Shown: positions 596 through 57,898 of the stretch, piece after piece
Layout of the letters: the number at the start of each line of letters is the position of its first letter
How positions within the stretch are numbered: the first letter of the stretch is position 1
Virus record (IMG/VR): IMGVR_UViG_3300018494_000083
Strand: one strand, 5' to 3'
Source: a virus
Lineage: Duplodnaviria; Caudoviricetes
DNA length: 64,000 nt
The notes under the pieces: model-generated
Told to the model about the DNA's origin: nothing
The model's database searches: none
Seen by the model: only the letters and a program-made list of their open reading frames with translations
Program-made: the position numbers and the translations under genes

Positions 596-882
596 CATTT
601 TATTCACATAGGTCGCTAATCTATGCAGTTCTCTTATGAACTTCTCTAGGTCTCCCTAGATGTTTAGACTATATCTTCATCTCCTTTCGGAGAGTCTACC
701 GTTTCCATTTAAGGGGATTTCACCCACTCGCTTGAGCCGTACTCCTATTGGTTATTTCTAACCCAAGGGATAGTCGTTGAACGTTACTCTTTCGAGTCTT
801 CGCTGCGGATTGTCCTTACGGATATCCCCGCAATTAGATAGATACCAGTATACAGTCACCCGTATACACAGGCAATCAATTC
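596..882 (-). ncRNA. Group I intron 1 in gyrB (287 nt, no ORF)
   Basis: Inserted right after EGDSAG; P1 pairing GCAGGT/GCCTGT; P10-like GATT/AATC; terminal G. Confidence 0.88.
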
Positions 883-3299: not shown

Positions 3300-3370
3300 A
3301 TGATAAAAAATAAAAATGGATGGAGACCGAAGTCTCCATCCATCTTATTTATCTTATTAGTGAATAAGGA

Positions 3371-3889
3371 TTAGTAAGATACACGATAGAACTTATTCTT
3401 GTCCTTCTTCTTACCCTTCTTATTCTTCTTCTTTTTCTTCTTACCGTTCTTGTAAGAATCCTTGTGCTCGTTCATGAGTCTCTCTACGAGATCAGGGCAA
3501 CGAGAGATAATACGAAGTGCCTTCGTGATCTCATCGTCAGTCTCCTCATTGATTGCGAGTCTGTTACGAGCGATAGAGAGCACAGAGTAGATTACATCAT
3601 GTGCTGCAATAACCGAATCCTTGGAAAGCATCTCAGGATCGGTGTGAATCTTACCACCACAGATCTTGCAGATACGGAACATACCGTCATCGCTTGTCTT
3701 GAAGTGGGTCTTGCCATGATCGCGGTCGATATGGTTACACTGGCAACGCTTGATGATTTCCTTGTCCTTCTGCTTGAGAAGTCGGAGTTCTTCCTTTCTC
3801 TTCTCTTTCTTGGACTTCTTCTTCTGCTCGCCGCCTTCGTATCTGAACTTGCCACGAATAATACGCTTAGACATTGTGGTTTCCTCCAA
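3371..3889 (-). CDS. Lys-rich hypothetical protein with CxH/CxxC motifs
   Basis: ORF with basic termini; probable start at MSKR after a GGAGG SD. Confidence 0.7.
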   Translation of the reverse strand: MEETTMSKRIIRGKFRYEGGEQKKKSKKEKRKEELRLLKQKDKEIIKRCQCNHIDRDHGKTHFKTSDDGMFRICKICGGKIHTDPEMLSKDSVIAAHDVIYSVLSIARNRLAINEETDDEITKALRIISRCPDLVERLMNEHKDSYKNGKKKKKKNKKGKKKDKNKFYRVSY

Positions 3890-7382: not shown

Positions 7383-7964
7383 CTAAATAAGTACTTTCTG
7401 TCTTCTACTAATATGATAGAAACCATCTCTGATAATAGATTTACCCGTGGTTCTGCCATAGATAGAAATATATCCCTCGGAATTAGCCATTGCCTTTATC
7501 TTGGTTAGTTCCATCATGCGAAGAGTTCTAAGCTCTTTCTCTTTATCTTCGAGCAATTTAAGAGCTTGACGTTTCTCCTTAATTGCATCATCTGCATTCT
7601 TGCAAACGTCGACGATACTATCAAACGAGTCTTCATAATCTTCACCAAGCGAACTACAGAATTCAAGGAATTTATTTTCGCTTTCCTCTTTAGGATCTGT
7701 AAAGTCTGCTCTACCCGTGGTTCTTTGAACACCCATCGGGTTAAAGTCTTCCATACTAAGTCTTGATAAGGGTTTGCCATCAATATCTGGTGTAAGCAAA
7801 ATTTGGTTGTGTTCATCAAATGGATGAAGGAACAGATAAATCCTATCTTTATTAGGCTTACCTCTAAACTTCTCCAGTTTGAATCCCATGTATTGCTTAC
7901 CTGTATCTTCATCTCCGTCTTGTTCACGGTTGATGATAATACAACAGTCCGTATTTTTCATGAC
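7383..7964 (-). CDS. dnaB: DnaB-like helicase exon 3
   Basis: Begins VMKNTDCCIIINRE, followed by KFRG; in frame with the upstream exons after splicing. Confidence 0.85.
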   Translation of the reverse strand, partial: VMKNTDCCIIINREQDGDEDTGKQYMGFKLEKFRGKPNKDRIYLFLHPFDEHNQILLTPDIDGKPLSRLSMEDFNPMGVQRTTGRADFTDPKEESENKFLEFCSSLGEDYEDSFDSIVDVCKNADDAIKEKRQALKLLEDKEKELRTLRMMELTKIKAMANSEGYISIYGRTTGKSIIRDGFYHISRRQKVLI

Positions 7965-8332
7965 CATTATCTTCACACAGGTCGTTAATCTGTGCAGTTC
8001 TCTTATGAACTTCTCCAGCATTTCTCTGGATGTTGAGACTATATCATCATCTTCTTTCGAAGGGTTATCCATTTCGATTTAAGGGATTCTCACCCACCCA
8101 CTTGGGTCCTACTCCTATTGCCGATTCTCACGGCTTATTTCAGGATAGTCGTTGAACGTTCCTCTCTCGAGGCTTCGCTGCGGATTATTCAATCTTTAAC
8201 CTTTTTACTATTCCTCGGATAATTACTCCGAGCCATTATGTTTCACATAACTTAGTAGCCAAAGCTCTAAGAATATCCCCGCAATTAGAATAATTTTGTA
8301 ACTAGTCCATCACTAGACTAGGGGACATGCTA
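7965..8332 (-). ncRNA. Group I intron B in dnaB (368 nt)
   Basis: P1 pairing TGGGAT/GTCCC; terminal G; core near-identical to gyrB intron 2; carries ~80 extra nt. Confidence 0.85.
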
Positions 8333-8344
8333 ATCCCATGATTC
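8333..8344 (-). CDS. dnaB: dnaB micro-exon 2 (12 nt, ESWD)
   Basis: GAATCATGGGAT lies between the terminal G of intron A and the P1 of intron B; gives NVS-ESWD-VMKNTD. Confidence 0.8.
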
Positions 8345-8633
8345 CAAATATCTTCACTAAGGTCGTTAATCTTAGCAGTTCTTCTACGAACTTCTCTAGG
8401 TTACCCTAGAAGTTGAGACTATATCTTCATCCTTTATATAAAGGAGCTCACCATTTCCATTTAAGGGGATTTCACCCACTCACTTGAGCCGTACTCCTGT
8501 TGACCATTTCAGGTCCAATGGGATAGTCGTTGAACGTTACTCTTTCGAGTCTTCGCTGCTGATTAGGTCTGTAACCCTCCCAGCAATTAAATGAGGATCG
8601 ATATACGTTACCGTATAAAGGAGCAAATTCCTT
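8345..8633 (-). ncRNA. Group I intron A in dnaB (289 nt)
   Basis: P1 pairing GAGT/GCTC; terminal G; core near-identical to gyrB intron 1. Confidence 0.85.
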
Positions 8634-11218: not shown

Positions 11219-11935
11219 TTATTCCCAGTCCTGATCTATTACGTTCATAAAACGGTACAATCCGGTAGCCGCCATGAAAGCGTTATAATAGAAGTCAATA
11301 TCTCCACCAGGAACTTCATCGATCGTTTTAAGGACACCTTTAGTACCTCTTTTCTTATCGAGTCTGAGAACTGCGACTTGTTCGATGTGTTCACCATACT
11401 GGTCTTCATACATCTTGGCATATGCAGCCAATTGCATATACATTGTAGGATGAAAGTCTGAGCTTGTTTTAAAGTCGATAATAGTAAGCTTTCCTTTATA
11501 TCGACAGAGCAGATCAAGAGTTCCACCGTAGAAGTCACAAACCATTTTGACTTCTGTATCAATGGGATCTATCTCATCACCATGATCTCTCCACCAGAGT
11601 AAGAACGAGTTAATTGCATTTCTCGTCTTCTCATTCATTTCATATGGAAGGCTATCTATCTCAACGTTGACATTATATCTTTCCGATCTTCTGTCAAAGA
11701 TGAAACTTTCGATATAATTATGTGCAAGCGATCCTATGACACTTGCATCGTTTAATTCTTTAGTGAGTGACTTCCTCTTCCAGCCAAGTGAGTTTGCCCA
11801 CTGCATGAGACTTTCTTTACCGATAACTTTCAGCACAGTCGTAACAGATGGCACTCTATTACCAGGATATGACTCATAATTTGTATGATCTGTAGAAAGA
11901 GGAATTTGATACTTTTTTCTACTGGAAATTCTCAT
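11219..11935 (-). CDS. PD-(D/E)XK exonuclease
   Basis: PSVTTVL, GSLAHNYIE, GGTLDLL, IIDFKTS, QLAAYA. Confidence 0.85.
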   Translation of the reverse strand: MRISSRKKYQIPLSTDHTNYESYPGNRVPSVTTVLKVIGKESLMQWANSLGWKRKSLTKELNDASVIGSLAHNYIESFIFDRRSERYNVNVEIDSLPYEMNEKTRNAINSFLLWWRDHGDEIDPIDTEVKMVCDFYGGTLDLLCRYKGKLTIIDFKTSSDFHPTMYMQLAAYAKMYEDQYGEHIEQVAVLRLDKKRGTKGVLKTIDEVPGGDIDFYYNAFMAATGLYRFMNVIDQDWE

Positions 11936-12043: not shown

Positions 12044-14179
12044 ACTCCGGCAATGATTAATGTTGAGAATGAGAATAGATGGTGGTGGACGCATGAGAAA
12101 GGTTATGGCGGAGATTGGTCATATAGTCCACGAGATAAAGATCATGGTTGGATACTCCAACCCAAATCTATAAAGGAACAACAGCCGGAGCATCTAGAGT
12201 ATTCTCTTTAAATCTTGCTGGTTGGGCATATGATTGGTATGTAGATCCGAGAGATATCAATGGTAAGTCCAAGATTACATGTCTATGATGACAATACTAG
12301 AGGTACAATAATAATTTTGAGTGGGTATAGTCAAGATTGGGGATATCCACAATCCTTATCGTATATACTCCATATATCAATCTAGATGGACAGACAATAA
12401 ATGCTAAAATGAATTCATTAATAATATCCCAATGGGGCACTTTGATTATTTATTGGGCTTCTGGTGAGTTTATCCAAGATGGTGTCCTACTCCTAAATCA
12501 ATAATGTGGGGACAAACAGAAAATCATATTTACCATAATCATATAGTTACTCAATATGGCGATATGAATCATGATTTCTGGGTAATTCTTGAACGTGGTG
12601 TAAATTACTCCTAATGCACATCTTACTGCATTGACCCATCAAAATACTATCAATGTCATTCGAGATCCAGGTGAAATTAATTACTATACATATCCTTATA
12701 ATTCGAATCATACGTATGATTACTCCGTTTAATGATCCATATAAATTATCGACTATATTCTTTATAATTACCACAGATTCAATATCTTCATATGGTACAG
12801 GTAAACAGTATTCATATGATACAAATGGTCGATACTCCAATTAAGTCGTTCAAAAACACTGATGATTCGGCTCGCAGATATCATACAATAATGGATACTA
12901 ACGGTCAAGCTCTATTAGACGGTTGGTATGCTATATATGGATTTAGAGGTGTGCTACTCCAGTATTAATAGGATTTCCAGGAAATAGTGACCAATATGCA
13001 TCTCTTGGCTGGCGAATGGCTCAAATACCAGATTGGGGACATGGGCATTCATCATATGATACTGGTTATTCGTATGGATCTTGACTCCATTATTTAATAA
13101 TTCTAGTATTCAAACATGGCATTGCAATGCATTTAAAGCTATTTATAAAGGAAGTGATGGCACATATGACCAGAATTGGATAATTGGTGTCTATACTCCA
13201 CATTTTCTGTACCATATTCCAAACTTTACAATGTTCACAGATATAGATGGACAATCAAGACCAAATTATTCTATGTACGGTCAATTTCCTCAGAGTAATG
13301 GTTCAACTCCTAGTATATCTATAACAACTGAAAAGTCTCCTCGAAGTAGTTACATTAACTCTTCCGGAAGTATCGGACTTGCAGCATATGCACAATTTGG
13401 ATATGGTTCACTCCACATTTTTTATATATCTATGCTGAATATGCCATGCTTATTAGTCCATCTGGCACGAGCGATGTCAACTGGAATAGTACATTAGGTA
13501 GCCGTCCACACGAGATAGGTGATTTACTCCAGGTACTATGAAACCAACAGATAACCATCCACGCCATACATATATAATGAATAATGGTAGAGGTGGAGAT
13601 GGCGCATATGTTCAGTTCTCGTATGATCTACTCCAAGTCTTGACCAATTTGATATGAATAATAACTGGTATGCACCATGCATAATTAATACTGGACAAGG
13701 CTCATTTGGTCATACTGGTACATCTGGTAAAGATGGAGACTCCAGATGATAGATTTATCAATGCAAATAAATTTACGAATATAGATGTTATTACACCAGT
13801 TGGATATGTATCAAATGGTTATGGATTAGTATATCAAAAACATGGTATCAGATACTCCTAGTTATGAGTACGATGCATGGTATAAACACATATCTGCAAT
13901 AAATCAATCAGGTTCTGGAATTGCGGATAGTTTTGAATGGATCTGGGGTGTTTATATACTCCAGATGTATTAGATACAATATATACATATTATTTTCACC
14001 TAATATATAATGCAGGACTAAGTACAGGTGGAGGTTATTTATTTCCAGGCGGATTAGGAGGTGTATCTACTCCATGGTCGCAATATTATTCTCAAACTTC
14101 CGAATACCACATGGGTTTATTTAAGCTGATAACTGAAACGGAATACACATCACAGTTACTAGCATACTTATCGTATGGT
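12044..14179 (+). repeat. Variable-region cassette array 1 (19 units, ~100-125 bp each)
   Basis: Units begin ACTCC (one AGTCC) and mostly end at GGT/GGA; every unit is stop-free in the TP frame; unit 2 (12154-12264) matches the target VR at 110/111 nt. Confidence 0.9.
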
Positions 14180-14223: not shown

Positions 14224-15189
14224 GTGAGGTATATTATTATGAAAGTACTGAGTAATACTTCTGTATATAACTATGCCGAACTTCTTGGTGGAGCCAAACT
14301 CAGTGCTGCTATTAAATCGCTTATCGATGATAAACATGGAGCAGTATATGTAACCGAATCTCAGTTAGAAGATGTATTCTATAAGATTCGCCACAAGAGT
14401 TTCAACTTCAAAGCTAAGTTCGGTGTAATCGATTTATTCCGTAAAGGAGTAATTCGTCTTGTTTATAACGAGAAGGTTAAACTCACCGTTGCAGTTCCTT
14501 TCTTTGCATATAAGATGCAGAATGGTAAACTCGGTGTAGTTGTCAACATTTCCAACTATGCACATCTTGAGAAAGATGGCTCTATTAAGATCGATCCTCT
14601 GGTTCTTTATTCTCTCATGGTTGCAGGTGCTTATAGTCTCCAAGCAGAGACTCAGCAGGCTATTCTTGCTACCAATGGACTTCCTGAGTTCTATGCTGAT
14701 CTGTTCGTATCTGTGGTTGCTCGTATGAGTAATCTCGATATGATTCGTCGCGAAAAGATCAAGTTCATCATGACTAAGTTCATGTGCATGAATCTCGGAA
14801 TGGACGAACCCAGAGCATCCAGTGCAGCTAAGAAGGTCATCAAGAATCTCGATGACTATAGCGTTGAGCAGCTTGATCTTGCAATTCCGGTTGCAGCATA
14901 TGTAGATCTTGATAATCTCATCAACGCTCTTCGTGAAGCACTTCCTGAAATCTCGGGTATCACTTATGGTATGATCTTCGACCGTTGGATTAAATCCTAT
15001 GGTGAAGCTACTGGATTTGCACTCGAATATATTCCTTTCTTCATCCTGACATTTGTCGCTCTTATTACTAACTGTAATAGTCTTGCTAACGTTAAGACTA
15101 TTGAGCGTGAAGCAAATAAGGATGCAAGAAGACTTGTAACTCTGTACGACCGTATTGAGACCGCTGTACAGGTTTCCGCAAACATTTAA
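14224..15189 (+). CDS. Hypothetical protein (probably late/virion)
   Basis: Long ORF; probable start MKVL after GAGG; GACA-N6-TA motif at 14198-14209. Confidence 0.75.
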   Translation: MRYIIMKVLSNTSVYNYAELLGGAKLSAAIKSLIDDKHGAVYVTESQLEDVFYKIRHKSFNFKAKFGVIDLFRKGVIRLVYNEKVKLTVAVPFFAYKMQNGKLGVVVNISNYAHLEKDGSIKIDPLVLYSLMVAGAYSLQAETQQAILATNGLPEFYADLFVSVVARMSNLDMIRREKIKFIMTKFMCMNLGMDEPRASSAAKKVIKNLDDYSVEQLDLAIPVAAYVDLDNLINALREALPEISGITYGMIFDRWIKSYGEATGFALEYIPFFILTFVALITNCNSLANVKTIEREANKDARRLVTLYDRIETAVQVSANI

Positions 15190-15277
15190 CAAAAAAAAAT
15201 AAAATTCGGGAGAGGCTTCAACCTCTCCCGATATGTTTATATATTTTTAGCCAACAAGCAACATATAAATAATGATG

Positions 15278-15460
15278 TTAAAATATTGGAGTCAAATTTT
15301 TCATAGGATATCCTTTCCCGTGTGCAGTAATGATTGGTTGCAGCAACGGTTTCTTCTTATGAATAATAGGATTTTTCGCTACCGCTTCGTTATGGCAGTC
15401 ACAAACCACTTTCAGTAGTTGTGGATGCTTGCAACAAAGGCGAATAAAATTATCGCTCAT
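15278..15460 (-). CDS. 60-aa hypothetical protein, copy 1
   Basis: GAAAGGAG SD; paralog of 15689-15871. Confidence 0.75.
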   Translation of the reverse strand: MSDNFIRLCCKHPQLLKVVCDCHNEAVAKNPIIHKKKPLLQPIITAHGKGYPMKNLTPIF

Positions 15461-15688
15461 ATTGAGATCTCCTTTCGATATATTTCGAATTTGACATCAT
15501 AACCTAGGTTGACGGATAAGAGGGCTGACTCTTATCCGTCTTTTCCTTGATTATTATATCATATTCATAAATATGGTGTATAATTAAGTCTTATTTTAAA
15601 CTAAAAAAAATAAAATTCGGGAGAGGTTGAAGCCTCTCCCGATATGTTTATATATTTTTAGTCAACAAGCAACATATAAATAATGATG

Positions 15689-15871
15689 TTAGATTATTGG
15701 TGTTATATTCTTCATAGGATATCCATTTCCACTCGTTGTGATTTTCGGCATCAACAGTGGTTTATTCTTATGAATAACCGGATTTTTCAATACACCTTCA
15801 TTGTGGCAATCACAAACAACTTTCAACAGTTGCGGATACTCACGGCAAAGGCGAATGAGGTTATCACTCAT
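15689..15871 (-). CDS. 60-aa hypothetical protein, copy 2
   Basis: GAAAGGAG SD; conserved frame, length and Cys/His residues. Confidence 0.75.
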   Translation of the reverse strand: MSDNLIRLCREYPQLLKVVCDCHNEGVLKNPVIHKNKPLLMPKITTSGNGYPMKNITPII

Positions 15872-16074
15872 GCTAAGTATCTCCTTTCAATGAATTTGAA
15901 TTTGACATCATAACCTAGGTTGGCGGATAAGAGTTGCAGCTCTTATCCGTCTTTTTCCTTGATTATTATATCATATTCATAAATATGGTGTATAATTAAG
16001 TCTTATTTCAACTCAAAAAAAATAAAAATATGGAGATAGGCATTTCTGCCTATCTCCTTTATTTGTCGTTATTT

Positions 16075-20644: not shown

Positions 20645-21394
20645 TTACCATCCTTCCTTGAAACTTAAGAGAGCAGTCTTGAATGTATCAGACTGATATT
20701 CTTCGGGAATAGGCATACCATAGACTACCTTCTTTGCAGTCTCGATATCTACACTCTTAATATAAGACTTAAGAGAGTTGAAATAAGACAGATGATAGTT
20801 TCTATAGTTATTTGCGGTCAGTATGATATCCTGAATATCTTTCTTCGACCAGAGTTTCTCAAGCTCACCAGCACAGTGATATGCGAATTCCTCTTTATTT
20901 GTAAAGATGGCTAATTCAACACTGAGTGCGAGAAGGTTGATCTGATCAGTCTCGGTAAGATCAACATGATGGGATTTACCGTCAGAGAGTACAATATTAA
21001 TACCGCTTATGATTCTCTTATTACAAGCATCGCTCATATTAGCAATAACGCTATTACGAACATAGTCAAGAGTAGAGGTGTCTTCAATGGTGGCAACGTT
21101 ATAGATATCGTGGTTCTCATTAACCACGGATTTAAGAGTTTCATACTCACTCATCGAGATTTTAACGAGTCTCATGGGTTCAGTCGGATAAGAATGCTCT
21201 GTATCAAACTCGAGATCTCCAGTTACATAGATCTTATCATCATGTAACTCACCAGCAAGACCGACCGTAAGTCGGTAATTGGTATTAGGTCCAGATTTCT
21301 CTTTTCTTAGTCTTCTACCAGCTTTCTTATATACAACTAATCCATCGGAGACATCCAAGATCTTACCAGATGTACTTACAAATTTATAATACAT
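20645..21394 (-). CDS. DUF4376-like tail-fibre-associated protein
   Basis: DLTETDQINL...YHCAGE...YHLSYFNSLKSYI pattern, recalled from Firmicutes phage DGR neighbourhoods. Confidence 0.6.
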   Translation of the reverse strand: MYYKFVSTSGKILDVSDGLVVYKKAGRRLRKEKSGPNTNYRLTVGLAGELHDDKIYVTGDLEFDTEHSYPTEPMRLVKISMSEYETLKSVVNENHDIYNVATIEDTSTLDYVRNSVIANMSDACNKRIISGINIVLSDGKSHHVDLTETDQINLLALSVELAIFTNKEEFAYHCAGELEKLWSKKDIQDIILTANNYRNYHLSYFNSLKSYIKSVDIETAKKVVYGMPIPEEYQSDTFKTALLSFKEGW

Positions 21395-22487
21395 TTATCT
21401 TGCCTCCAAATAATGATTTTATATAGTTAACAAATTCAACTTCGTTCTGACGAGAGCCGAATGATTCTATTGTATCCATAGTAGACTTACAATATTCACG
21501 AACCTTATTTAGCTCTATTTCACCAGACTTCCATTTATTGTAAAGCTTCTTGAGTTTCTTCTTGTTAGATTGCATCTTTTTCTTAGGGATAGATGATATG
21601 ATCTTCCCTGATTTCTTAACTCGGAATTCTATCTTAAGATATTTAAATTCTTCGATAGTACTTATCTTAACTTTGTTTTCATTCAAAGTAAGTCCAAGCT
21701 CGGCACCTAATTCACTTACACTCTCAAGAACCTTCATAAGTTCTTCTCGTGTTCGCATGATAAGATAAGCATCATCTACATAGCGTCCAAAGAACTTTAC
21801 ATGACATTTCTCTTTGATGAAATGGTCAATTACATTTGGGTATACTACACCAACTAATTGACTGAAAGGTGCACCAAAAGGCATCTGTTCATATTGGCAA
21901 AACTCAGCAAGCTGTTTCTTTATTAGATTGTTTTTGGTATTTTTAGATACCACATTTAAAGCCTTATCGGGGATAATACTGTTAAAATATGACGAATAAT
22001 CTATAACCGCAATACAACAGCTCGTACCCCACTTATTAAATGCTTTAACTAGATCTTCTTTGATATTGACGTAGGCTTGTGTCATTCCTTTATTCTTGAC
22101 ATTGCCTACATTACCGTCTACTATTGATCCCAATACTACATCACTGAGATAATAGTCGTTGATAGTTTTCTGCACTAATCGTTCTTCGAGATGAGGTGTC
22201 TGAATATGTCTCTTCTTTCCTCGGTCTGTGATATCTACATCATATACACCTTTTGATTTGTAGATCTCTCCATGCTCAGCATTGTCCGCCATTTCATATA
22301 TGGCATACAGAGATTTTTCTTCAAACCTTGCATATGAGCCTTTCGATTTACGAGAACCTTTAGACATGCGATCATAAGTCTCAAATAGATTAGTAAATGA
22401 GAGTATATCAGATAACTCTGGTTCATCCTTGTGCTTCTTCCGTTGACGATTTTGATAACGGATTTCGCGTCTTTCTTTTGAGTTCAT
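21384..22487 (-). CDS. DGR-type reverse transcriptase
   Basis: RGKKRHI, ERLVQK, IDYSSYFNSI, MPFGAPFSQ (SQ motif of DGR RTs), GRYVDD; 367 aa with no maturase or endonuclease domain; downstream of an avd-like gene. Confidence 0.9.
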   Translation of the reverse strand: MNSKERREIRYQNRQRKKHKDEPELSDILSFTNLFETYDRMSKGSRKSKGSYARFEEKSLYAIYEMADNAEHGEIYKSKGVYDVDITDRGKKRHIQTPHLEERLVQKTINDYYLSDVVLGSIVDGNVGNVKNKGMTQAYVNIKEDLVKAFNKWGTSCCIAVIDYSSYFNSIIPDKALNVVSKNTKNNLIKKQLAEFCQYEQMPFGAPFSQLVGVVYPNVIDHFIKEKCHVKFFGRYVDDAYLIMRTREELMKVLESVSELGAELGLTLNENKVKISTIEEFKYLKIEFRVKKSGKIISSIPKKKMQSNKKKLKKLYNKWKSGEIELNKVREYCKSTMDTIESFGSRQNEVEFVNYIKSLFGGKINVL

Positions 22488-22489
22488 CT

Positions 22490-22910
22490 ATCCTCCATGA
22501 TAAAAAAGTTTCGTAAGAATCCTATTGAGACTCTTACGAAATTGGCTTCTGTATAATCAGTTGTAGATAGCATAGATTACATAGGGAATTGGTATGAAAC
22601 TACAGAGCTATCAATTCTGTAGCCATGCAAGAAGCGTCCACCTATCCCATCAGAATCATATAATGATTTCCTCCTTCAACAGAAGATACTGAATTCACCT
22701 TGTGGGTTACTATGCCTGACCAGCTGCTGAGAGACCATGAAGCTAGTTATGTATTTTTAAGTTGAATCCCGAAGCAAACACCATACGATGTATATGTCTT
22801 CCATATCTTAGTTCGGGCTTCACACCCGCATCAGCTGCCTTAGTAAGATATGTATTGAGAGAGGTTCTCAACGACGTTCGATATAGGAAATCATGTATAT
22901 AATCACTTCC
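22490..22910 (-). ncRNA. DGR RNA region (degenerate TR with IMH*-like end plus spacer)
   Basis: ORF-free interval between avd and RT; 17 nt ATGGTGTTTGCTTCGGG (22768-22784) identical to the target VR 3' flank (27091-27107); hairpin at 22510-22540. Confidence 0.7.
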
Positions 22911-22912
22911 AT

Positions 22913-23407
22913 TTAGTAATATGCAGAGAAGTCTTTACCAAATGCAATAGAGAATCTCTTAAACGCTCTTTGGTCTTGTTTCATTACACCACGAATTAAC
23001 CTTGCCTCATCCAATATTCGTCCTGTAAACTCTTTGAGAACTTTATCTTTGTCTTCGATAAGTTCCTGAATTTCCATTCGCTTACCAATCTTAAGGAGCT
23101 TTCCAACTACCTTAAGAGAGGATATTGTGGCTTCAAAGAATTCTTGGCGTCGTTCATATGCTTTTCGGTACATCTCATATGTGGCATCAGTCTTTCCATA
23201 CTTCCAGAATTTAAAATCTATCTTTATATCATTTGCTTTCTCTAAATATTCCTGAGCCAGAGTGATATTGTACAATATGCGGTTTGTAAATGTTCCCGAG
23301 TATCGTTTAGGAAATTTTGAGCAGTGATTATATGTATAAGCTACTAGATCAGCCATATTATCAATGAATTTAATTTGGGATGAACCAACATCTCCGTAAT
23401 TATCCAT
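22913..23407 (-). CDS. avd: Avd-like accessory protein (four-helix bundle)
   Basis: 164 aa, FPKRY...EKANDI...ERRQEF...LIRGVMKQD pattern; canonical position upstream of TR-RT. Confidence 0.8.
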   Translation of the reverse strand: MDNYGDVGSSQIKFIDNMADLVAYTYNHCSKFPKRYSGTFTNRILYNITLAQEYLEKANDIKIDFKFWKYGKTDATYEMYRKAYERRQEFFEATISSLKVVGKLLKIGKRMEIQELIEDKDKVLKEFTGRILDEARLIRGVMKQDQRAFKRFSIAFGKDFSAYY

Positions 23408-23493
23408 ATTTTCCTCCTTATGGGTGTTGTAATTTATACTAATACATTGCTCATTGGAATATATACTCGTAAAGCCCTAAATATAATATCTAC

Positions 23494-23604
23494 ACCATGA
23501 TCTTCATTACCAGACCACGTTCCACCGGTAGGATTTCCATCAATATATATTCGCTTCCACCTATCGGCAATCATTACATCAGATACTATTTCATATGTAG
23601 GAGT
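23494..23604 (-). repeat. Solo variable-region cassette
   Basis: 111 nt ACTCCT...CATGGT encoding TPTYEIVSDVMIADRWKRIYIDGNPTGGTWSGNEDHG, directly after a terminator U-tract. Confidence 0.8.
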
Positions 23605-23640
23605 AAAAAAAGAAGAGATAGCCCGAAGGCTATCTCTCTT
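23605..23640 (-). terminator. Intrinsic terminator
   Basis: GAGATAGCC-TTCG-GGCTATCTC stem followed by a T-run. Confidence 0.85.
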
Positions 23641-23644
23641 ATTT

Positions 23645-25660
23645 TTAAAGTGTAAGGTTGTATGCAATATAAGTCGCGTACTGATCCTTGAGAGTTTGAA
23701 TGATATTACCCTTGGCGTCAACGATGCTATGATCACCATTATAACTGATTACGTTATAAGGTTCTGCGTCACCATATACTTCACGGATTCTGTCATTCTT
23801 ATAGACCATATTGATAGCCTCTCTGGTCTCAGGTGCAACTCGTACATAAGCCATATGATCATGGCTAATCCAACCTTGAATCTTATCGAGCATCTCGAGA
23901 GTCTCAGTCATCGTCAATTTACCAAAGTCAGCCTTAAGACCAAGAATAGTAAATACTGCCGATTTCTTACCACTCTCAGTGAAATCATTAAGGAATGTAT
24001 CTTGAAGCTCGACCATATCTTTATGGAGATTTCCGTCATCATCTGTATAAGTGATGACATAATTATCTCCTATATCCATAATCTTTTGTCCAAGGAAAAC
24101 AATTCCAAGAACATCAGCACTATCCCAGTTAGTGATAGTGGAAAGAGTTCTTAATGATCCACAGTATTGCTTTGTTTCGATTCCCCAGAAGATCGTTCTT
24201 GTGATCAAGCAGTTCGTATATTCATCCTCAGAGAGGAGATAGATAGCCGAATTAACAGGACCACAATATTTATACCAGTCCTTACGAGAATCCCAAGATT
24301 CTGTAGGATCGGTATCAGGAAGATCTGCAAAATGGAGATAGTTCTGACCATGTTTGATGAAGATGTGATTCTCTCCAGATTTAGTGGAAACAATCCTGAA
24401 CTCCTTCTGGTCTACTCTCTTACTCTTAAGATTGATGCCAATATCGGTAATCTTATCAACGAGGTAAAGGTTACCAGACTTATCACACTCGAAACGGTAG
24501 TCTCTACCAACCTTCTTACCAGTTCTTGCATCGATATAGGTATCGCTCAGAATCGTGTAAGAGGAATCATTCTTATGGTCATTCGTCCACTTAAAGTCGT
24601 AGACTTCCCAACCATAATCAGTTTTGTATTTGAGCTTATTCATAAGCTTATTGACTTCATACCCACGCTCCTTACAATCCGAAATGAAGAGCATATCAGG
24701 TGCAGGATCACGAATGATATCAGTAAGAATAGCTTGCATCTCAACCTTGTTTACGGATACTGTATATTTGGGCTGTTCGCCGATGATATTGGTACGCGTA
24801 TAAACACGATCGTATTCATTGGCTTCACCAAGTGTCGGAAACGAACCAGCTACAACATAGTCGCCGTTCTCACGATAGATCTTAAACTCATTCTCAGGAT
24901 AACCGTCATCATTATAAACGACTCCTATTTGGAGCATATAGGTTGTATCAGATTCGAGTTTATAAGAGCTTCTGTAAAGAGGAACTCTGAATCCGCCTAC
25001 CTGGGCAACGAACTGTCCATCAATGAACGAGATCTTATATGTCGGGGTTTCGATGATATTAGGTACATTATATTCCGAAGAAGATATATGTACCGTATAT
25101 GTGGTTATATGGCTCTTAGATTTGTGATGGATCTCATTATAGAGAACCTCAGCCTTAGTCCTATTCAAGTTTCTTTCATGAAGCTTCTGATAAGGCTGAA
25201 CACAATCTCTTCTAAGAGTGATAACCGGAATGATATTCAGTTCACTACCCTTACCGAAATGAATCGGACACTTGGTTGCAGTAAAGAAACCATGATAAGG
25301 TTCGTCTGTTTCGATAAGGAATTCCTCGAAAGGAATCTCGGAGATGAACTCAATTTCTTCTTCTTTGACCGATCTTGCATATACAAGAGATGTACCAATG
25401 GGAGTGATACAATCGATCAAATCCTCGGGAAGACAAGATGTAATGTAGATAGAATCAAGCCATTCAATCTTGCCTGTTTTGATCTTGTCAGGAATTCCAA
25501 CAAGTGCAAGGTTAGCAGTCATATTGTCATTAATACTAACTACATATGCCTTGATACTTGTCTTTGTTCCATCGAGATTTGTATAGGAGAGCGTCTTATA
25601 GTCTCCCAATTTGAGATCTTTCTGAGTCATCTTAAACCAACTCTGTTTAATAGCACTCAT
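23645..25660 (-). CDS. Large hypothetical protein, possibly with a degenerate DUF6273-like N-terminus
   Basis: 671-aa ORF; LKLGDYKT and IIPVITL weakly resemble DUF6273 elements. Confidence 0.65.
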   Translation of the reverse strand: MSAIKQSWFKMTQKDLKLGDYKTLSYTNLDGTKTSIKAYVVSINDNMTANLALVGIPDKIKTGKIEWLDSIYITSCLPEDLIDCITPIGTSLVYARSVKEEEIEFISEIPFEEFLIETDEPYHGFFTATKCPIHFGKGSELNIIPVITLRRDCVQPYQKLHERNLNRTKAEVLYNEIHHKSKSHITTYTVHISSSEYNVPNIIETPTYKISFIDGQFVAQVGGFRVPLYRSSYKLESDTTYMLQIGVVYNDDGYPENEFKIYRENGDYVVAGSFPTLGEANEYDRVYTRTNIIGEQPKYTVSVNKVEMQAILTDIIRDPAPDMLFISDCKERGYEVNKLMNKLKYKTDYGWEVYDFKWTNDHKNDSSYTILSDTYIDARTGKKVGRDYRFECDKSGNLYLVDKITDIGINLKSKRVDQKEFRIVSTKSGENHIFIKHGQNYLHFADLPDTDPTESWDSRKDWYKYCGPVNSAIYLLSEDEYTNCLITRTIFWGIETKQYCGSLRTLSTITNWDSADVLGIVFLGQKIMDIGDNYVITYTDDDGNLHKDMVELQDTFLNDFTESGKKSAVFTILGLKADFGKLTMTETLEMLDKIQGWISHDHMAYVRVAPETREAINMVYKNDRIREVYGDAEPYNVISYNGDHSIVDAKGNIIQTLKDQYATYIAYNLTL

Positions 25661-26532: not shown

Positions 26533-27336
26533 TTAAGCAAACCTATCCAAATAACGACAAGAATGAAGTTTAGTCAGTTCCTCGTTTGTAAGAACTTTAT
26601 TGTAGAACTCATAGCCTTCAATTACCGTATTGCTATTACCAAATACAGCTCTTCTATTATCGGAGCTATAGGCTCTTGCATTAGCAGTAATATTAGCCAG
26701 AGTATTTGTAGATTTAAGTTTACCGTTTACATATCCACGAATAGTAGCCGAACCAGTCTTATCTTGAGAGATAATGAGAGTGATTCGGTCTCCATCGTTG
26801 ATATTAGCGGGTGCAATGACCACTTGACCTCCGACGAAAATGCCTTGGGAACCATTCGAGATGTTGTAACCGCCGGTCAAACCGTTGCCGGAGTCCAGTG
26901 AATACCGCATATCAAAAATACCGCCGACATCAACCGCACCATCCAAGTCCTTAATTCTAAAGTCATAGATATGCGTAATTCCAACCTTGGGACTGCAAGC
27001 CATTGCAGGGAATACTTCGACTTCGCCTCGAGATTTCAGCGCGAGCGCCGCGTTGTAGTATCTTGCATGGTTTCTTTGCTTGGTTGAAAGCCCGAAGCAA
27101 ACACCATTGATATCTCTCGGATCTACATACCAATCATATGCCCAACCAGCAAGATTTAAAGAGAATACTCTAGATGCTCCGGCTGATGTTCCTTTATAGA
27201 TTTGGGTTGGAGTGCGAAGCCACCAGTATGTATAGTTAGGTGAGTCGTTGATGAGGAACTTCTTACGGATGAGAACAAAAAAGCGGGTAGTGAGTTTCCC
27301 CACTACCCTAAACAATCCCTTGTCACCAAGGGTCAA
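26533..27336 (-). CDS. DGR target: DUF6273/CLec-like variable segment fused to a LamG/ConA-like domain; start uncertain
   Basis: YWWLRTP...NGVCFG motif; C-terminal YVNG...YNKVLTNEEL is LamG-like; no ATG upstream of the VR, and the first ~20 codons overlap a terminator-like hairpin. Confidence 0.75.
   Translation of the reverse strand: MTLGDKGLFRVVGKLTTRFFVLIRKKFLINDSPNYTYWWLRTPTQIYKGTSAGASRVFSLNLAGWAYDWYVDPRDINGVCFGLSTKQRNHARYYNAALALKSRGEVEVFPAMACSPKVGITHIYDFRIKDLDGAVDVGGIFDMRYSLDSGNGLTGGYNISNGSQGIFVGGQVVIAPANINDGDRITLIISQDKTGSATIRGYVNGKLKSTNTLANITANARAYSSDNRRAVFGNSNTVIEGYEFYNKVLTNEELTKLHSCRYLDRFA
27103..27213 (-). other. Variable region (VR) currently matching array-1 cassette 2
   Basis: Reverse complement equals 12154-12264 except A12181 vs T (position 27186). 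Confidence 0.92.
27277..27308 (-). terminator. Terminator-like hairpin just upstream of the target VR
   Basis: GGGTAGTG-N8-CACTACCC followed by GCTTTTTT. Confidence 0.7.
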
Positions 27337-27623
27337 CAGTTAAACAACACTTATGTCCACAGAGCAATGAAAAGCAGGTTCATTTTTTGAAGGTACCCGT
27401 TTATGGCAGCAACGAGAATTTTACGGTTTGCGAAATTTATATATACAGGAGGTTTGTCAATGACAAGAAAGTTTACCATGTGTTGCTTAACTAGGAATAA
27501 GAATTATATAGTTTAATGTTAGCTTATTTTTATTTTTAATTAATATACAATTATACATTATTATTATGGAATTAGGAAACTAGTTCCAAATCGAAAATAT
27601 ATTATGAAAGGAAGTGACTTAGA

Positions 27624-36492: not shown

Positions 36493-38061
36493 ATGTATTT
36501 ACGAATGCTACAAATAGATGATTTCGTGAAGCTGAATAATCTTCGTGAGATCAAGGATCCTATTTACATGCAATTTAAACAACCAACTCCAGAAGGGTTG
36601 TTCAGTCATGAGATTTTTGGTATAACCCAGTATGATAGATCTACTATTTGGGGCTATATCGACCTCGGTGCTAGATTCTTGCATCCTCTTGCGGCGAATA
36701 ACTTTAAGAAATATGGATCGACCTTTGAAAATATCATCTATGGTCTTAAACGCTATAGAATGGTCGATGGTGAGTTTATCGAAGATGAAGAAAATGGTGA
36801 CACCGGAATTGATTTTCTTTACGAAAATTACGATAATATAAAATGGAGAGATACACCGAGTATTGGATCAAGCGAAAGGATTAAATTCCTTAAGCAAGGT
36901 AAAGATAGAATCTTTATCACCAAATTCCCAGTATGCCCTCCGTTCTATCGTGATATCAATGACAACTCTTCCACAGGTATCCCTGTTGTAAATGAGTTGT
37001 ATAAAAAGGTTATCTCTCAATGTATGGCACTTAAGAAGAAAGGATCGTTCTCTTTCTTTGGAAACCTTACAAGAGCTAACATCCAAAAAACACTTGTTGA
37101 AATCTTTGACCATTATGTCACTTCCCTTAAAGGTAAGACTGGTTTAATGCGTAGATCTGTAATGGGTCGTAATATTGACTACGGTGTATGGTGCGTTCTT
37201 GCATCTCCTGTAATTGACTGTGAAAGATATGATGAAATGCTGGTTGACTTTGACCACATGGGAATCCCTCTTGCAGCAGTCCTCGCAATGTTTAAACCCT
37301 TTATCTTACAGGCAACCAAAGATTTCTTTGCAAACGAATTTGTGAGATCGGGTAAATACCCCGTCTTGAAGATGACCGGTAAAGGAAAGTACGAAACTGT
37401 ACTGGTAGACTTTATCGATCCTCTGAGTGAATTCTCTGATGATTTTATCGACAAAAGAATTGCAAACTTTGTCAATGGCTATTCTACCAGATTTGAGCCA
37501 ATTGAGATTCCTAGTAACCGTGAAGGTATTAAGGGATACTTGTCTATATCTGGTCGTTTTGGTAGTGATGAAAAGATCTCTACTCGTCCTATGACTTGGA
37601 CTGATCTGTTCTTCATCGTTGCCGAAGAATGTACACAAGACAAGAGTGCAATCTGGAGTCGTTATCCTATAGATCATTTCTATTCTGTTGAATATCCTAA
37701 GGTTAGAGTAATGTCAACCATTACTACTACAACCGCAACTATCGATAATAAAACCTACAAGTGGTATCCGAATGTCAAAGTTGGTCAAGATTCCTCTTCT
37801 GACTTTGTGGCAACGATTGCACCATGTAACGTTAATATCGGAGCTTTAGGCGCGGACTACGATGGAGATAGTACTCCGCTCAGAGGAATATTCACAGCAG
37901 AAGGAAATATCGAAGCTGAGAAGTTCAGAAGAGATAAAAAGAATTTCTTGGATCTCCAAGGAAGAAATATCAGACCTACAGAGAAAGACTTCTGTCAGTT
38001 AATGTATTCTTTGACTAAGCCTAGCATTGTTATGCCTGGTGAACTTGAAGATCCTAACTAA
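36493..38061 (+). CDS. Phage multisubunit RNA polymerase beta'-like subunit (catalytic fragment)
   Basis: PEGLFSHEIFG, WGYIDL, KGKTGLMRRSVMGRNIDY, RYP, GADYDGD catalytic motif. Confidence 0.9.
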   Translation: MYLRMLQIDDFVKLNNLREIKDPIYMQFKQPTPEGLFSHEIFGITQYDRSTIWGYIDLGARFLHPLAANNFKKYGSTFENIIYGLKRYRMVDGEFIEDEENGDTGIDFLYENYDNIKWRDTPSIGSSERIKFLKQGKDRIFITKFPVCPPFYRDINDNSSTGIPVVNELYKKVISQCMALKKKGSFSFFGNLTRANIQKTLVEIFDHYVTSLKGKTGLMRRSVMGRNIDYGVWCVLASPVIDCERYDEMLVDFDHMGIPLAAVLAMFKPFILQATKDFFANEFVRSGKYPVLKMTGKGKYETVLVDFIDPLSEFSDDFIDKRIANFVNGYSTRFEPIEIPSNREGIKGYLSISGRFGSDEKISTRPMTWTDLFFIVAEECTQDKSAIWSRYPIDHFYSVEYPKVRVMSTITTTTATIDNKTYKWYPNVKVGQDSSSDFVATIAPCNVNIGALGADYDGDSTPLRGIFTAEGNIEAEKFRRDKKNFLDLQGRNIRPTEKDFCQLMYSLTKPSIVMPGELEDPN

Positions 38062-38365
38062 CGACGAAAAAGAGGTAGTAGGAAAACCTACTACCTCTTT
38101 GATGAAGAAAAAGAACAACCGAGAAATAATATAACAGCTATTGTGATAACTCTGACATTTTATGTTTGTAAATGCTACACGCATTAGTGTTTCAGTTCAA
38201 GCAATAACCACCATATTACTTATGGTTATTTTAATGTTGTTCCTAAATTAAACAAGATTCTTCAACTCATAAAAATATATACATACCGAACAATATAATG
38301 TGATGCTTCTCATGCTGTCACATGCTGTTTGTTTTCGGCATTTTTGGACTCCTTATTTTGTAAAA

Positions 38366-38400
38366 GGGCATATCCTCCGCAGGGATATGCCCGCTTTTTT
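38366..38400 (+). terminator. Terminator-like hairpin preceding array 2
   Basis: GGGCATATCC-N7-GGATATGCCC followed by GCTTTTTT. Confidence 0.8.
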
Positions 38401-38410
38401 CGTCCTCTGC

Positions 38411-40984
38411 ACTCCAATATCATACGGATTATGGATTCAAGATAAAGGAAGTTTCGTACTTGGAACACCTGTTAGTGGAACTGCGACATATGCATATAGT
38501 TCTAATCTAGATGGTGCTACTCCAGGAATGTATAATGAGGCAGAATGGAGACAGTATTACAGATTAAATATAGACGGAATTGGAGGAGCTGGCGGTTATA
38601 CATACGGGGTTGACGGATTAGGGTATGGTTTTACTCCAGGTACACATGACGGGGTTGACGGATTATATAATGAGATGATTCGACTCGGTTATAGCGGCGA
38701 TATAAATTTTGCAGGAGCTCAAGATAGCATACGAGGTGTATAGACTCCAGCAAGAAATCATCATTCAGTACCAGTTGATTTGAAATCTATGATAAATGTA
38801 TCGATATTTGGAGATGCAAGAAGTAATTATATTGAGGCTAGCTATAATCATGGTGCTACTCCATCAATATTCATAAATTCTGATAGTCATACAAGATATA
38901 CAATTTATAACAGAGATGGACTTGGAAGAGATTATGCATATGTTATCGATAACTATGGTACTACTCCATCTGATACAAACCCAAATTATGATGGGACATT
39001 GGAAGATTTTCATTGGATAGCCAATTATGGAGGACCTTATACAGGTTGGTTACCTACTTGGATAATAGGTGTCACTCCTTTAATGCATGCCGATTCAATA
39101 CATTTAGATCAAAGATCCTTTGCCATTACATATCAAGATGGTTGTTTTCAGGTTGATCAAATCGAAAGTTATTATACCCATGGTTATTACTCCAGATAAA
39201 TTGCTTCATGTAGGCGAATTAGCAGGATGCCATTATTATTGGTTTGGTACTGGCGGATATGGAGGTTATGGCGGAACAGTTTGGGACAAAAGAGGTGTCT
39301 CAACTCCAGTCATGAATTATCACTCAATAAAAATAGATCAATACTCAATTGCCAATATATTACCTAATGGAAATGCACATGCATCTCTAATAGAAACATA
39401 TTATAATCATGGTGTCACTCCACCAGCATTTGGTTGGATGTACCAAGGGAGTCCATCTGGATACGGTCATATTGCAATCATATTTAGTTGGGGAGAATCA
39501 TCTGCTAGCAACCAAAGTACAGCTAATCCAAATGGTGCTACTCCAGGTCATGCTCTCAGGTACAATGGTATGTATCCTGCAGAAGGATCTCTTAGCCTTT
39601 CTGATGGCAGGGGAGCTGATTCTGGAACTATTTATCAGGCGTATAATGGTACTCCTTCTGTTAACGACCCAACGATGTTAATATATGGCGGATATAAATA
39701 TTCCTATTACTTTTATGATATGAGAGAATATGGAGGTATATCTGCTGATTCATCTGTTGGAGATCGAGGTGTTTATGACTCCATTTTGGAATACAAATTA
39801 TGATATAGCTTATCCAACATGGGTTTATAAAATAGAAAGTACTGGTTGGTGTATAAGTTATAGAAATACTACCCTGGATAAACTTGGTGATATACTCCGT
39901 CAGTAGCCGATAAATATAATGGATCTATATTGATACAGGAGAGTGTTCGGATTAATGGAGATTGTTCATGGAATGTATCAAGGGAAAAGTATGGACTCCT
40001 GGGTTGCTGGGAGACGTATATCATTGGTGCGATCAGTTTGAATACACCCAACCAGATGGGATTGTATATAGTAGTGGATTTGGATGTCATTCTAATCATG
40101 GTTACATTACTCCAGTTAGTGTGAATAAAATATATTCTAGCGACATTAATAACACTTGTGTAATTTTAAGAAATGGTGAAAGCGGGACATATGGCTATTT
40201 CTATTCAGGTGCCAATAATGGTGCTACTCCTAGTAATATGACAGATAGCAATGCTCAATTGTGGGATAATGGAATATCTGCAATCGGAACTTGGATTAAT
40301 ACTTTGTGGAATAAAATTGGTGTACAACTCCACATTTAATAGTACGAAATTTTATCCAGGAAATGTACTGTACGAGTTTAATCATAGCTGACGGATACGG
40401 TGTAACAGATCAGTGGTTCATGTCAAATTATAAGCTTGGTGAATACCACTCCAAGATCAGAATCACTAATATATGAAGGAACTGAATTATCAACGGATCA
40501 TTTGTATGCCATACATGATATCGGTCAATGCTCTCCCAGATTTTATATTAATATGTATGGTTCTACTCCAGATGTAAGATATTGGGTTGGTTTAAATGTA
40601 TGGCATGAAGGTATCTTTTGTCATATTCATACTGAATATAATGAATATGTAAATTACGCAAATTGTAAGTATGAGTTACTCCAAGTAGACGAGTTCCACC
40701 AGATGGAGAACAGAGAGGAACTAGAGTTCAAACCGATGGGACGTGTTCCGAACTTATATATACTATTCTTCGGTATGGACAACTCCAAGTAGATCTAAAG
40801 TAGCCATCAATGATGATCGATGGTGCAGATATTGGGAAAATGGGACAGTCACCTTTCAAGCATATCCAACAATCAGGTATGGTCTACTCCAAGTAATTCA
40901 AAAGCTGCAGATAGTCTGAGATGGTGTAGATTTATGAATAACGGAACAATTACAGTCTTAGCTTATCCATCAATATCGTATGAA
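38411..40984 (+). repeat. Variable-region cassette array 2 (23 units)
   Basis: Periodic ACTCC...GGT units, each open in the TP frame (e.g. TPISYGLW...NLDG, TPGMYNEA...GYG); linkers shift the frame or contain stops. Confidence 0.9.
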
Positions 40985-41217
40985 ATACTTACTTGAAACA
41001 AAATAAGACATAAATATACATCATATTTGTGATATGAGCAGGAGTAATTACAAGACTTATTATATTAATATAGGGAGTTAATATAATAACAGATCATTAG
41101 TAATCACTGTGGGTATATAAAAAGATATACTCTGATTAACACATCAATAATGTACCGTGAAATGCGGCGCATGTTAATTATCATATCAAAAAAATAATTC
41201 AAAGAGAGGTACACAAA

Positions 41218-56356: not shown

Positions 56357-56392
56357 ATGGCAGACGGATTAATTTCCGTCTGCCATTTTTTT
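56357..56392 (+). terminator. Intrinsic terminator preceding array 3
   Basis: ATGGCAGACGGA...TCCGTCTGCCAT followed by a T-run. Confidence 0.85.
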
Positions 56393-56403
56393 GTTTATTT
56401 TTT

Positions 56404-57833
56404 ACTCCATGTATAGGAACTGATCGTCCATTGCCAATATATAATCATCTTGTCAGAAATGTAGGTGCATCATTTAGTACTGGAGCAGATTATGTTTATT
56501 CTGCGTATGACTCCAACAAATGTAAATGATAATAGAGAAATGTACGGAACAAGTTTAATGCTCTTTTCAGGTGAGGGATTTATTAAAATGCATTCAACTG
56601 TGCGAGCATCCCTTGGTGACTACTCCACATAAAGTGCTACATTATGATAGAGAGAATTATGGCAATTCATTAGTTCTATATGATGGACGATCATACGCCG
56701 ATTCATATTATTCTGTAACTTATCAGATTGGTGGATATACTCCATTAAAAGATATAGGATATAATAATTACGAAAAACTCAACGGAATAAACCCAAGTGG
56801 ACAACCAGAGATGAAATACATGTGGATTCCAAATACCGAAAATGACGTCGGTGAGTAACTCCAACCCTTTGGTCTATTTATGATTATAATTATGATATAT
56901 TATACAGAATGGCAGATTATGGAGATTTAATTCTTGGTTCTGCTAGTCAATTATTTGGTGCCCATACTCCAGATACATGCTTTGAAATATTATCAATTGA
57001 ATCAACCAAATGGAAAGTAATTCATAATACTGGTGTAACTGTTGGCGGTCACGGAATTAGAGTCACTGACATTCCGGCTGGTGCAGGTGTTTGACTCCAG
57101 CAATGAATGAATTAAAAGCAGTGATTAATTATTCTGCATTTTTCTGGTTTTGGGATAGTATGTTATATTATGGATATATGCCAAATCATAACATTCCTGT
57201 TTGCACTCCTCTATCAAATCGATCTATATCAGATCTTGAGGGAGATCAGATACGATTTGCTGCATTATACAAAGATGCTGATGTATATTGACATTCCGTA
57301 AATTCTTGGATTTATGGTACTCCATATTCTCCTGGAGAATCTGCAACTTATTATATTGATAACAGCGGAAATAGTTCACCAAGAACAGGCAATATATTAG
57401 AAACTAGAGGTGTGACTCCGCAAGGAAAGATAGATCCATCAGCAAAAGCAGTAAATATCAATATTGCATATAATGGTCTTCCATCTTTACAGAACCCATC
57501 AGTGTCAGTTTGTGAATTACTCCAGTTAGAGAAAATGAATATGGACCACTTTATCACTTTGTCCTTGAAGCTACAGGTATTTCTAGAGGTGCGGGATGGT
57601 GTAGTACTCTTACTCTGACTGGTGTTAATTATTCACTCCTGAGGGTAGATCTTTATCTCACATAATATCGAATAAGGGAGAAGATAATCCTAGGTATACA
57701 AATATAGATACCAAATGGGGTGTTTGTTATTACTCCACAAGCGAAAATTCAAAGTGGAATAAAAACGGTATATCTCTTTATATCTGATTTTGGATTTTAT
57801 AGTATAGGTAATCCGAGCACACAAAAGTATGTT
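56404..57833 (+). repeat. Variable-region cassette array 3 (13 units)
   Basis: ACTCC-initiated units; 12 are open and one has an in-frame TGA (57289-57291); unit 12 ends GGTGTTTG like the target flank. Confidence 0.88.
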
Positions 57834-57898
57834 TTTCAGCATTTATATACAGGAGTCAGATCATAACTGACGAACATTTATATAATAACTTCCGAAGG

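What the first reader, a model, noticed from the sequence alone, without database searches (positions are those of the whole stretch)
23494..23640. Cassettes sit immediately after intrinsic terminators
Seen: the solo cassette abuts a terminator U-tract (TTTTTTT-ACTCC), array 3 begins ~12 nt after one, and array 2 begins 10 nt after one. Array 1 lacks an obvious terminator. Inference: either selection to keep cassettes silent or lowly transcribed, or an insertion mechanism that targets transcript 3' ends (for example RT template jumping). The solo unit beside avd may be a nascent array.
Basis: partly seen in the sequence, partly recalled or inferred. Interest (0 to 1): 0.7.

Follow-up and report, generated by a model that had tools for sequence, protein, structure and literature searches.

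The report
Phage cassette library parked behind terminators
A giant phage stores about a hundred silent spare tips for one surface protein, and most of the storage blocks begin within 10-27 bases of a transcription stop signal; related phages with the spot still empty show that a block starts as one exact cassette pasted there, most likely because these gaps between genes are the only safe places, though a reverse transcriptase aiming at RNA ends is not excluded.

Summary
Observation confirmed and extended. The cassettes are ~110-nt Thr-Pro...Gly units that replace the variable tip of a DUF6273 domain whole (8 of 10 live tips traced to a stored cassette), beside avd, an RT-2 RNA and a DGR-class RT. 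Six of 8 blocks (4 in the window, 4 fetched from relatives), plus a silent second acceptor slot, start 10-27 nt after a terminator stem; the other two start at divergent gene starts. Uniform non-coding placement is rejected (P~1e-3 in the window). Eleven related loci have the solo site empty: the insert is exactly one cassette, joined by 1-2-nt microhomologies, with 4 target bases lost. But the distance is not fixed, free space behind cassette-free terminators is only 13-38 nt, arrays show no leader polarity, terminator-led arrays do donate, and the solo is old and under purifying selection, not nascent. Best reading: capture into seams between transcription units, kept by selection (0.5); RT jump to RNA 3' ends 0.25. 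No RNA data obtained. The scan found the library before, here and on other DNA; the empty site was not in the notes I saw.

The parts
23613..23638 (-). Intrinsic-terminator hairpin of the 671-aa gene (T-runs on both sides, so probably bidirectional)
   Evidence: z -5.7; identical in filled and empty relatives
23492..23604 (-). Solo cassette, ACTCC...GGTGT, one open Thr-Pro...Gly-Val frame; present/absent polymorphism
   Evidence: synonymous-biased divergence
23439..23451 (-). AR9-like late-promoter-like motif in front of avd (inferred)
   Evidence: AR9 consensus from PMC5312081
22913..23407 (-). avd-like accessory gene, 164 aa
   Evidence: PHROG 3206 'Avd protein of DGR', E 0.002 (weak); position before spacer and RT
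22761..22782 (-). Copy of the constant 3' end of the variable region (IMH*-like); no template body in front of it
22524..22724 (-). RT-2 RNA (Rfam RF03077), the probable DGR spacer RNA
   Evidence: 90.8 bits, gathering 40, full length
21384..22487 (-). DGR-class reverse transcriptase, 367 aa, YVDD, intact in 15 alleles
27285..27308 (-). Terminator hairpin in front of the silent second acceptor slot
27031..27269 (-). Second copy of the variable region with its constant flanks (acceptor slot), starting 15 nt after the stem; in this assembly joined to the 3' end of the target gene by an inversion or mis-join
27103..27213 (-). Variable region in the slot; equals array 1 unit 2 (12154-12264) at 110 of 111 nt, one A>T
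12044..14175 (+). Array 1, 19 units; no terminator, back-to-back with the divergent gene 11219-11935; ends just before a late-promoter-like motif (14198)
38366..38400 (+). Terminator in front of array 2; fixed leader while the first cassette differs between strains
38411..40995 (+). Array 2, 23 units; ends before an early-promoter-like motif (41011)
56357..56392 (+). Terminator of the 328-aa gene, in front of array 3
   Evidence: z -8.2
56404..57850 (+). Array 3, 13 units; first unit of relatives lost; ends before a late-promoter-like motif (57873)

Best explanation
The cassettes are stored templates of a DGR-derived swap system. SHOWN: whole cassettes replace the variable tip of a 1,880-aa LRR + DUF6273 protein; every block lies in a seam between transcription units, either between a gene's terminator and the next promoter or at a divergent gene start; a block is founded by pasting exactly one ACTCC...GGTGT unit into a site that has no ACTCC, through 1-2-nt microhomologies with a 4-nt loss and no duplication; strains then differ by gains, duplications and ACTCC-to-ACTCC losses anywhere along an array. 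INFERRED: the pasted piece is a stray cassette-length cDNA (or DNA copy) made during tip swapping; most insertions in this dense genome break an mRNA, a terminator or a promoter and are purged, so survivors sit in the 13-38 nt behind a terminator stem or at divergent starts. The terminator belongs to the upstream transcript. It keeps cassette RNA low but does not block use as a donor; leaky read-through is a plausible source of template RNA.
For: Empty versus filled alleles. Stem-to-start distances of 10, 10, 13, 15, 18, 25 and 27 nt, no fixed register. Room behind cassette-free terminators 13-38 nt. Arrays 1 and 5 have no hairpin and sit at divergent gene starts. Arrays 1, 2, 3 and the solo end just before the next promoter-like motif. 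Donor use from both kinds of array. No leader polarity. Array 3 shows that a T-run/ACTCC junction can arise by plain deletion. Group IIC introns show that sites behind terminators are tolerated hiding places (PMC7306698).
Against: The two smallest blocks (1 and 2 units) both start 10 nt after the stem, about where a terminated RNA ends (7-9 nt, own knowledge), although the empty avd gap offers up to 46 free nt. Six of 7 blocks at co-directional junctions are in sense with the terminated gene (P=0.06); pure safe-harbour predicts no bias unless read-through is needed. Promoters and terminators are motif matches only. That the empty allele is ancestral is inferred (about 0.7), not rooted.
Confidence: 0.5

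Rival explanations
1. Template jump to transcript 3' ends. The RT copies a cassette RNA to its ACTCC end, jumps to the U-rich 3' end of a terminated mRNA and continues; the chimeric cDNA integrates by long homology on the gene side and by GT microhomology on the far side. This seeds new arrays exactly at terminators, in sense.
For: The solo junction has exactly this anatomy: upstream flank unchanged, ACTCC directly after the T-run, 2-nt join and 4-nt loss downstream. Smallest blocks at 10, 10 and 13 nt. Sense bias 6 of 7. The insert starts exactly at ACTCC though the target has none, which implies an intermediate with a defined end.
Against: Arrays 2, 3 (in relatives) and 4 start 18-27 nt from the stem; arrays 1 and 5 have no terminator; the second slot, which is not a cassette-length product, also sits behind a terminator. 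Only one founding event has an empty allele. No processing at ACTCC is shown. In BPP-1 the template must be flanked in cis by avd and spacer RNA (bioRxiv 10.1101/2023.10.23.563531); jumps by a DGR RT are not described there.
Confidence: 0.25
2. DNA-structure targeting. The long perfect hairpins extrude as cruciforms or single-strand stem-loops, are nicked or recognised, and capture cassette DNA beside the stem, like group IIC introns at terminators or the hairpin that BPP-1 needs at its target.
For: Stems of 10-14 bp at all six sites. BPP-1 homing needs a hairpin/cruciform (PMC3240598). Class C introns recognise terminator structure (PMC7306698). It would also cover the second slot.
Against: In BPP-1 the hairpin lies downstream of the variable region, here upstream of the cassette. 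No fixed distance. Hairpins between convergent genes (15206, 45016, 46055, 61066) carry no cassette.
Confidence: 0.13
3. Active throttling. Terminators in front of arrays are selected to hold cassette RNA low and so set the swap rate, or to avoid harmful untranslated RNA; the short leader transcripts before array 2 and the slot would be attenuators.
For: No late-promoter-like motif in sense upstream of, or inside, any block. The array 2 leader is conserved while cassettes change. The terminators before array 2 and the slot close short non-coding stretches, not genes.
Against: The solo's terminator is identical in phages without the cassette, so it does not exist for the cassette. Donor use does not differ by array type.
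Confidence: 0.12

Closest known systems
Diversity-generating retroelements (Bordetella phage BPP-1 mtd-avd-TR-Sp-brt; DUF6273-target DGRs of gut phages)
   Same: avd, structured spacer RNA (RF03077), RT, a lectin-type variable region with a constant 3' end repeated in the RNA.
   Different: No template in cis; about 100 unrelated templates in at least 8 remote blocks; whole-tip replacement with about 3% of adenines changed (canonical relatives: median 52% in their best window); 5' homology of 5 nt against at least 8 bp in BPP-1 (PMC3240598). The survey PMC5758913 describes many targets per template; my term search in it found no passage on many templates per target.
Group IIC (class C) introns
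   Same: A retroelement-derived insert directly behind Rho-independent terminators, where it does little harm (PMC7306698).
   Different: The insert is a 110-nt protein-coding fragment, not a ribozyme with its own RT; the distance to the stem is not fixed; two arrays ignore terminators.
Silent-cassette antigenic variation (Borrelia vls, Neisseria pilS, Anaplasma msp2; own knowledge)
   Same: Promoterless, start-less partial genes copied one way into one expressed locus; cassettes under selection on their peptide.
   Different: In a phage; cassettes unrelated to each other; only 5-nt and 3-5-nt end homologies; RT and avd next door.
CRISPR arrays and integron cassette arrays (own knowledge)
   Same: Tandem, colinear units that vary between strains, behind a fixed leader.
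   Different: No leader-end polarity, the only repeat is 5 nt, no integrase or cas gene recognised in the window.

Membership tests
DGR | DGR-class RT with intact catalytic motif | tested here: met
   RVT_1, YVDD and SQ in 15 alleles, synonymous excess; 63 of 80 nearest RT relatives have adenine-specific TR/VR pairs; BPP-1-type RT structure hit E 7e-7
DGR | avd accessory gene | tested here: inconclusive
   PHROG 3206 E 0.002, no Pfam or NCBIfam hit; position fits
DGR | Structured spacer RNA between template and RT | tested here: met
   RF03077 RT-2, 90.8 bits
DGR | Template repeat in cis, flanked by avd end and spacer | tested here: not met
   The spacer shares only about 22 nt of constant end with the target; templates are 9-80 kb away
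DGR | Variable region in a lectin-type target | tested here: met
   DUF6273 in the 1,873-1,886-aa target of relatives
DGR | Adenine-specific hypermutation of the copy | tested here: not met
   Same-sample pairs: 3 of 108 adenines and 2 of about 230 other bases differ, against a median of 52% in canonical relatives
DGR | Hairpin just downstream of the variable region | tested here: inconclusive
   Only a loose long-range fold, no short GC stem with 4-nt loop
DGR | RT-dependent retrohoming through RNA | not testable with these tools
Group IIC intron | Insertion behind an intrinsic terminator | tested here: met
   6 of 8 blocks; empty allele for the solo
Group IIC intron | Insert is a ribozyme that encodes its own RT/maturase | tested here: not met
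   110-nt insert, no Rfam match over 22400-23700 other than RT-2; RT scores 72 bits on TIGR04416, cut-off 300
CRISPR-like array | Leader-polarised acquisition | tested here: not met
   Retention by thirds of the array 0.67/0.67/0.86, 0.61/0.55/0.65, 0.67/0.69/0.81; mid-array gains and duplications
Silent-cassette antigenic variation | Silent partial genes copied into one expression site | tested here: met
   8 of 10 distinct tips match a stored cassette; reading frame kept in 309 of 316 cassette alleles, omega about 0.2
Silent-cassette antigenic variation | Extended homology between cassettes and expression site for homologous recombination | tested here: not met
   5 nt at the 5' end, 3-7 nt at the 3' end

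The most novel reading that the evidence does not exclude
A DGR-derived RT builds its own template library: it copies a cassette, jumps onto the 3' end of terminated mRNAs and thereby plants new silent arrays exactly at transcription termini, whose leaky read-through then feeds them back as templates for whole-tip replacement.
Probability: 0.25. Interest if true: 0.85.

Novelty: new variant of a known kind. Interest (0 to 1): 0.64.

Why it matters
The library itself, a phage that changes its probable binding tip by swapping whole stored cassettes with DGR parts, was in no paper my ten searches found. How such a library is founded was open. The empty/filled pair gives a single founding event at base resolution: a cassette-length piece with a defined ACTCC end, joined by 1-2-nt microhomologies. 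That points to a discrete intermediate and against homologous gene conversion, and it makes the RT-jump idea testable with one Term-seq run and one in vitro assay. The placement rule alone (hide behind terminators) is a known strategy and is mostly explained by selection, which caps the score.

Tried and rejected
No whole genome is held and the ENA/JGI records cannot be searched by handle. The phage is absent from the viral collection. A degenerate pattern from one tip found nothing in metagenome contigs; a slot pattern gave only unrelated DUF6273 genes and canonical DGRs. A walk to the array 16 kb left of the window returned no DNA. One tip peptide search was blank. 80 loci of distant DGR RTs have no ACTCC-type arrays within 10 kb. 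Rejected: (a) a 101-aa frame running through the hairpin into the solo, because it is frameshifted in relatives; (b) a special TTTGTT leader, because 5 of 23 cassette-free terminators have it too; (c) a shared 10-mer before array 1 and avd as a DGR promoter, because it varies in empty alleles and overlaps the divergent promoter; (d) ACTCC at 46010(-) as another solo, because it lies 44 nt from a stem and overlaps an open frame on the other strand; (e) a truncated target gene, because it is a second slot joined by an inversion or mis-join; (f) rooting the solo gain on a tree, because flanks are recombinant. PMC6182147 was a wrong id from memory and PMC6082379 is not held; neither is used.

Full report
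What the window is. It is part of a jumbo phage (RNA polymerase and virion PHROGs; relatives on 257-263 kb contigs). On the minus strand lie a 671-aa gene, a terminator, the solo unit, an avd-like gene (PHROG 3206, E 0.002), a 425-nt spacer that matches Rfam RT-2 (90.8 bits) and an RT. The cassettes are 96-130-nt units that begin with ACTCC, read open from Thr-Pro and mostly end near GGT: 19 in array 1, 23 in array 2, 13 in array 3, and the solo.

What the cassettes do. In relatives the gene upstream is a 1,873-1,886-aa LRR protein with a DUF6273 domain. Between the constant WWLR-TP and GVCFG flanks, ten different tips were seen, unrelated to each other. Eight match a stored cassette: three from array 1, one from array 3, two from array 4 and two from array 5. 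In the three same-sample pairs only 3 of 108 adenines and 2 of about 230 other bases differ, whereas 63 of 80 loci of the nearest RTs have ordinary adenine-specific pairs, median 52% in the best window. Orthologous cassettes evolve under purifying selection on the peptide (556 synonymous and 415 non-synonymous changes, omega about 0.2; stops in 7 of 316 alleles against 264 and 300 in the other frames). The spacer carries only the constant 3' end, no template. So the system works like a silent-cassette library built from DGR parts, and fails two defining DGR tests. Earlier notes of this scan reached the same reading for this genome and for tandem-template DGRs elsewhere; I had reached it before reading them.

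The observation. Under uniform placement in non-coding DNA, three of four block starts behind a strong hairpin has P = 0.0012.

The refutation test. I looked for arrays outside the window through tip peptides, not through terminators. Array 4 (L130, 14-15 units) starts 25 nt after a 10-bp stem that follows a stop codon. Array 5 (L245-L250, 17 units) has no hairpin and starts 50 nt from a divergent start codon, like array 1; array 6 (10 units) starts 13 nt after a stem. Two of three blind cases has P = 0.013 under the uniform null. Led by note e1-5664728 I then found a two-unit block 10 nt behind the terminator of a 412-aa gene. A silent second copy of the variable region with its flanks also starts 15 nt after a stem. 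The tally is 6 of 8 blocks plus the slot behind terminators, and 2 at divergent starts. None lies inside an operon or between convergent genes.

The empty site. Eleven related loci (L112, L113, L117-L120, L122-L126; L119 repeats L112's contig) have a 129-nt gap between the 671-aa gene and avd, with the same hairpin and no cassette; eight loci are filled. The filled allele replaces 4 bases with 110: the A of ACTCC coincides with the A after the T-run, and the cassette's last GT coincides with the target's GT. There is no duplication. The empty allele occurs in two variants, has four bases that the filled one lacks, and keeps no ACTCC, whereas losses inside arrays leave one. I therefore infer gain (about 0.7); the flanks are recombinant, so a tree does not root it. 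The insert starts exactly at ACTCC although the target has none, so the donor had a defined end, which suits a cassette-length cDNA. All filled loci hold the same cassette family. It differs by up to 12 of 111 bases, with 12 synonymous and 3 non-synonymous changes (P about 1e-5), so it is old and functional, and it has not grown.

Targeting or selection. Distances from stem to first base are 10, 10, 13, 15, 18, 25 and 27 nt. Behind cassette-free terminators the next promoter-like motif or ribosome site comes after 13-38 nt (the late motif resembles the AR9 consensus, PMC5312081), and arrays 1, 2, 3 and the solo end just before such a motif. Any insertion that spares both signals must start about where these do. 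The close gap at array 3 arose by loss of the first unit through a TA microhomology. Arrays change all along their length, not at the terminator end. Terminator-led arrays are used as donors at a rate not distinguishable from the others (3 of about 59 against 5 of about 41 cassettes, P = 0.27). The solo's terminator exists without the cassette. These points favour capture into seams followed by selection (0.5). In favour of an RT jump to RNA 3' ends (0.25): the two smallest blocks both sit at 10 nt, the solo's anatomy is what such a jump would leave, and 6 of 7 blocks at co-directional junctions are in sense (P = 0.06). Hairpin-directed DNA capture (0.13) has precedent in BPP-1 target recognition (PMC3240598) and class C introns (PMC7306698), but the geometry differs. 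Throttling as the prime cause gets 0.12. The readings overlap, since selection acts under all of them.

Limits. No transcript data. Promoters and terminators are motif and folding predictions. RT dependence of swapping is inferred from gene context and the short end homologies; BPP-1 needs its template in cis and at least 8 bp of 5' homology, so the mechanism here must differ and is not shown. Relatives are metagenome assemblies and not independent of each other. At least two arrays named in earlier notes were not matched to my loci.

Verdict. A real and non-random placement. It is best read as the footprint of how a cassette library is founded and tolerated, with one founding event resolved to the base. 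New variant of a known kind; interest 0.64.

Noticed in passing
window 37850-37880; L008, L010, L012 about 2900-3750 / 2550-3400 / 2450-3290: In relatives the catalytic ADYDGDS stretch of the RNA polymerase subunit is split by two adjacent group I intron-like inserts around a 13-nt micro-exon that encodes YDGD; the window's gene is intron-free.
   Followed up: partly
window 27031-27269 (-); L127 2686-2924: A 240-nt silent copy of the variable region with both constant flanks (second acceptor slot). The window's assembly joins it to the target's 3' end, by inversion or mis-assembly; most same-strain contigs have the full-length gene.
   Followed up: partly
window 252-870 and 7963-8623: Two pairs of group I intron-like repeats next to the gyrase B and DnaB genes.
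   Followed up: no
L245/L246 10890-11095 (-) and 8953-10912 (+): A two-unit block and the 17-unit array 5 meet tail to tail, and their last units overlap on opposite strands.
   Followed up: partly
window 12264-12272: The junction between units 2 and 3 of array 1 reads AGTCC instead of ACTCC, so unit 3 may be unusable; single cassettes at 38633 and 57205 carry stops in frame.
   Followed up: no
window 38100-38400 (+) and 27310-27620 (-): The terminators before array 2 and the slot close short non-coding stretches, not genes; possible small RNAs or leaders, conserved in relatives.
   Followed up: no
window 21384-22487 (-): The RT reads GAPFSQ where its relatives' consensus reads GLGLGSQISQ; this may relate to the low adenine error rate.
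   Followed up: no
window 15185-16070: Tandem 411-nt units, each a 60-aa gene with its own promoter motif and hairpins; a 54-nt copy of one terminator also lies beside the second slot in L127.
   Followed up: no
L112 8094-8288: An extra 64-aa zinc-ribbon gene directly after the RT in some strains.
   Followed up: no
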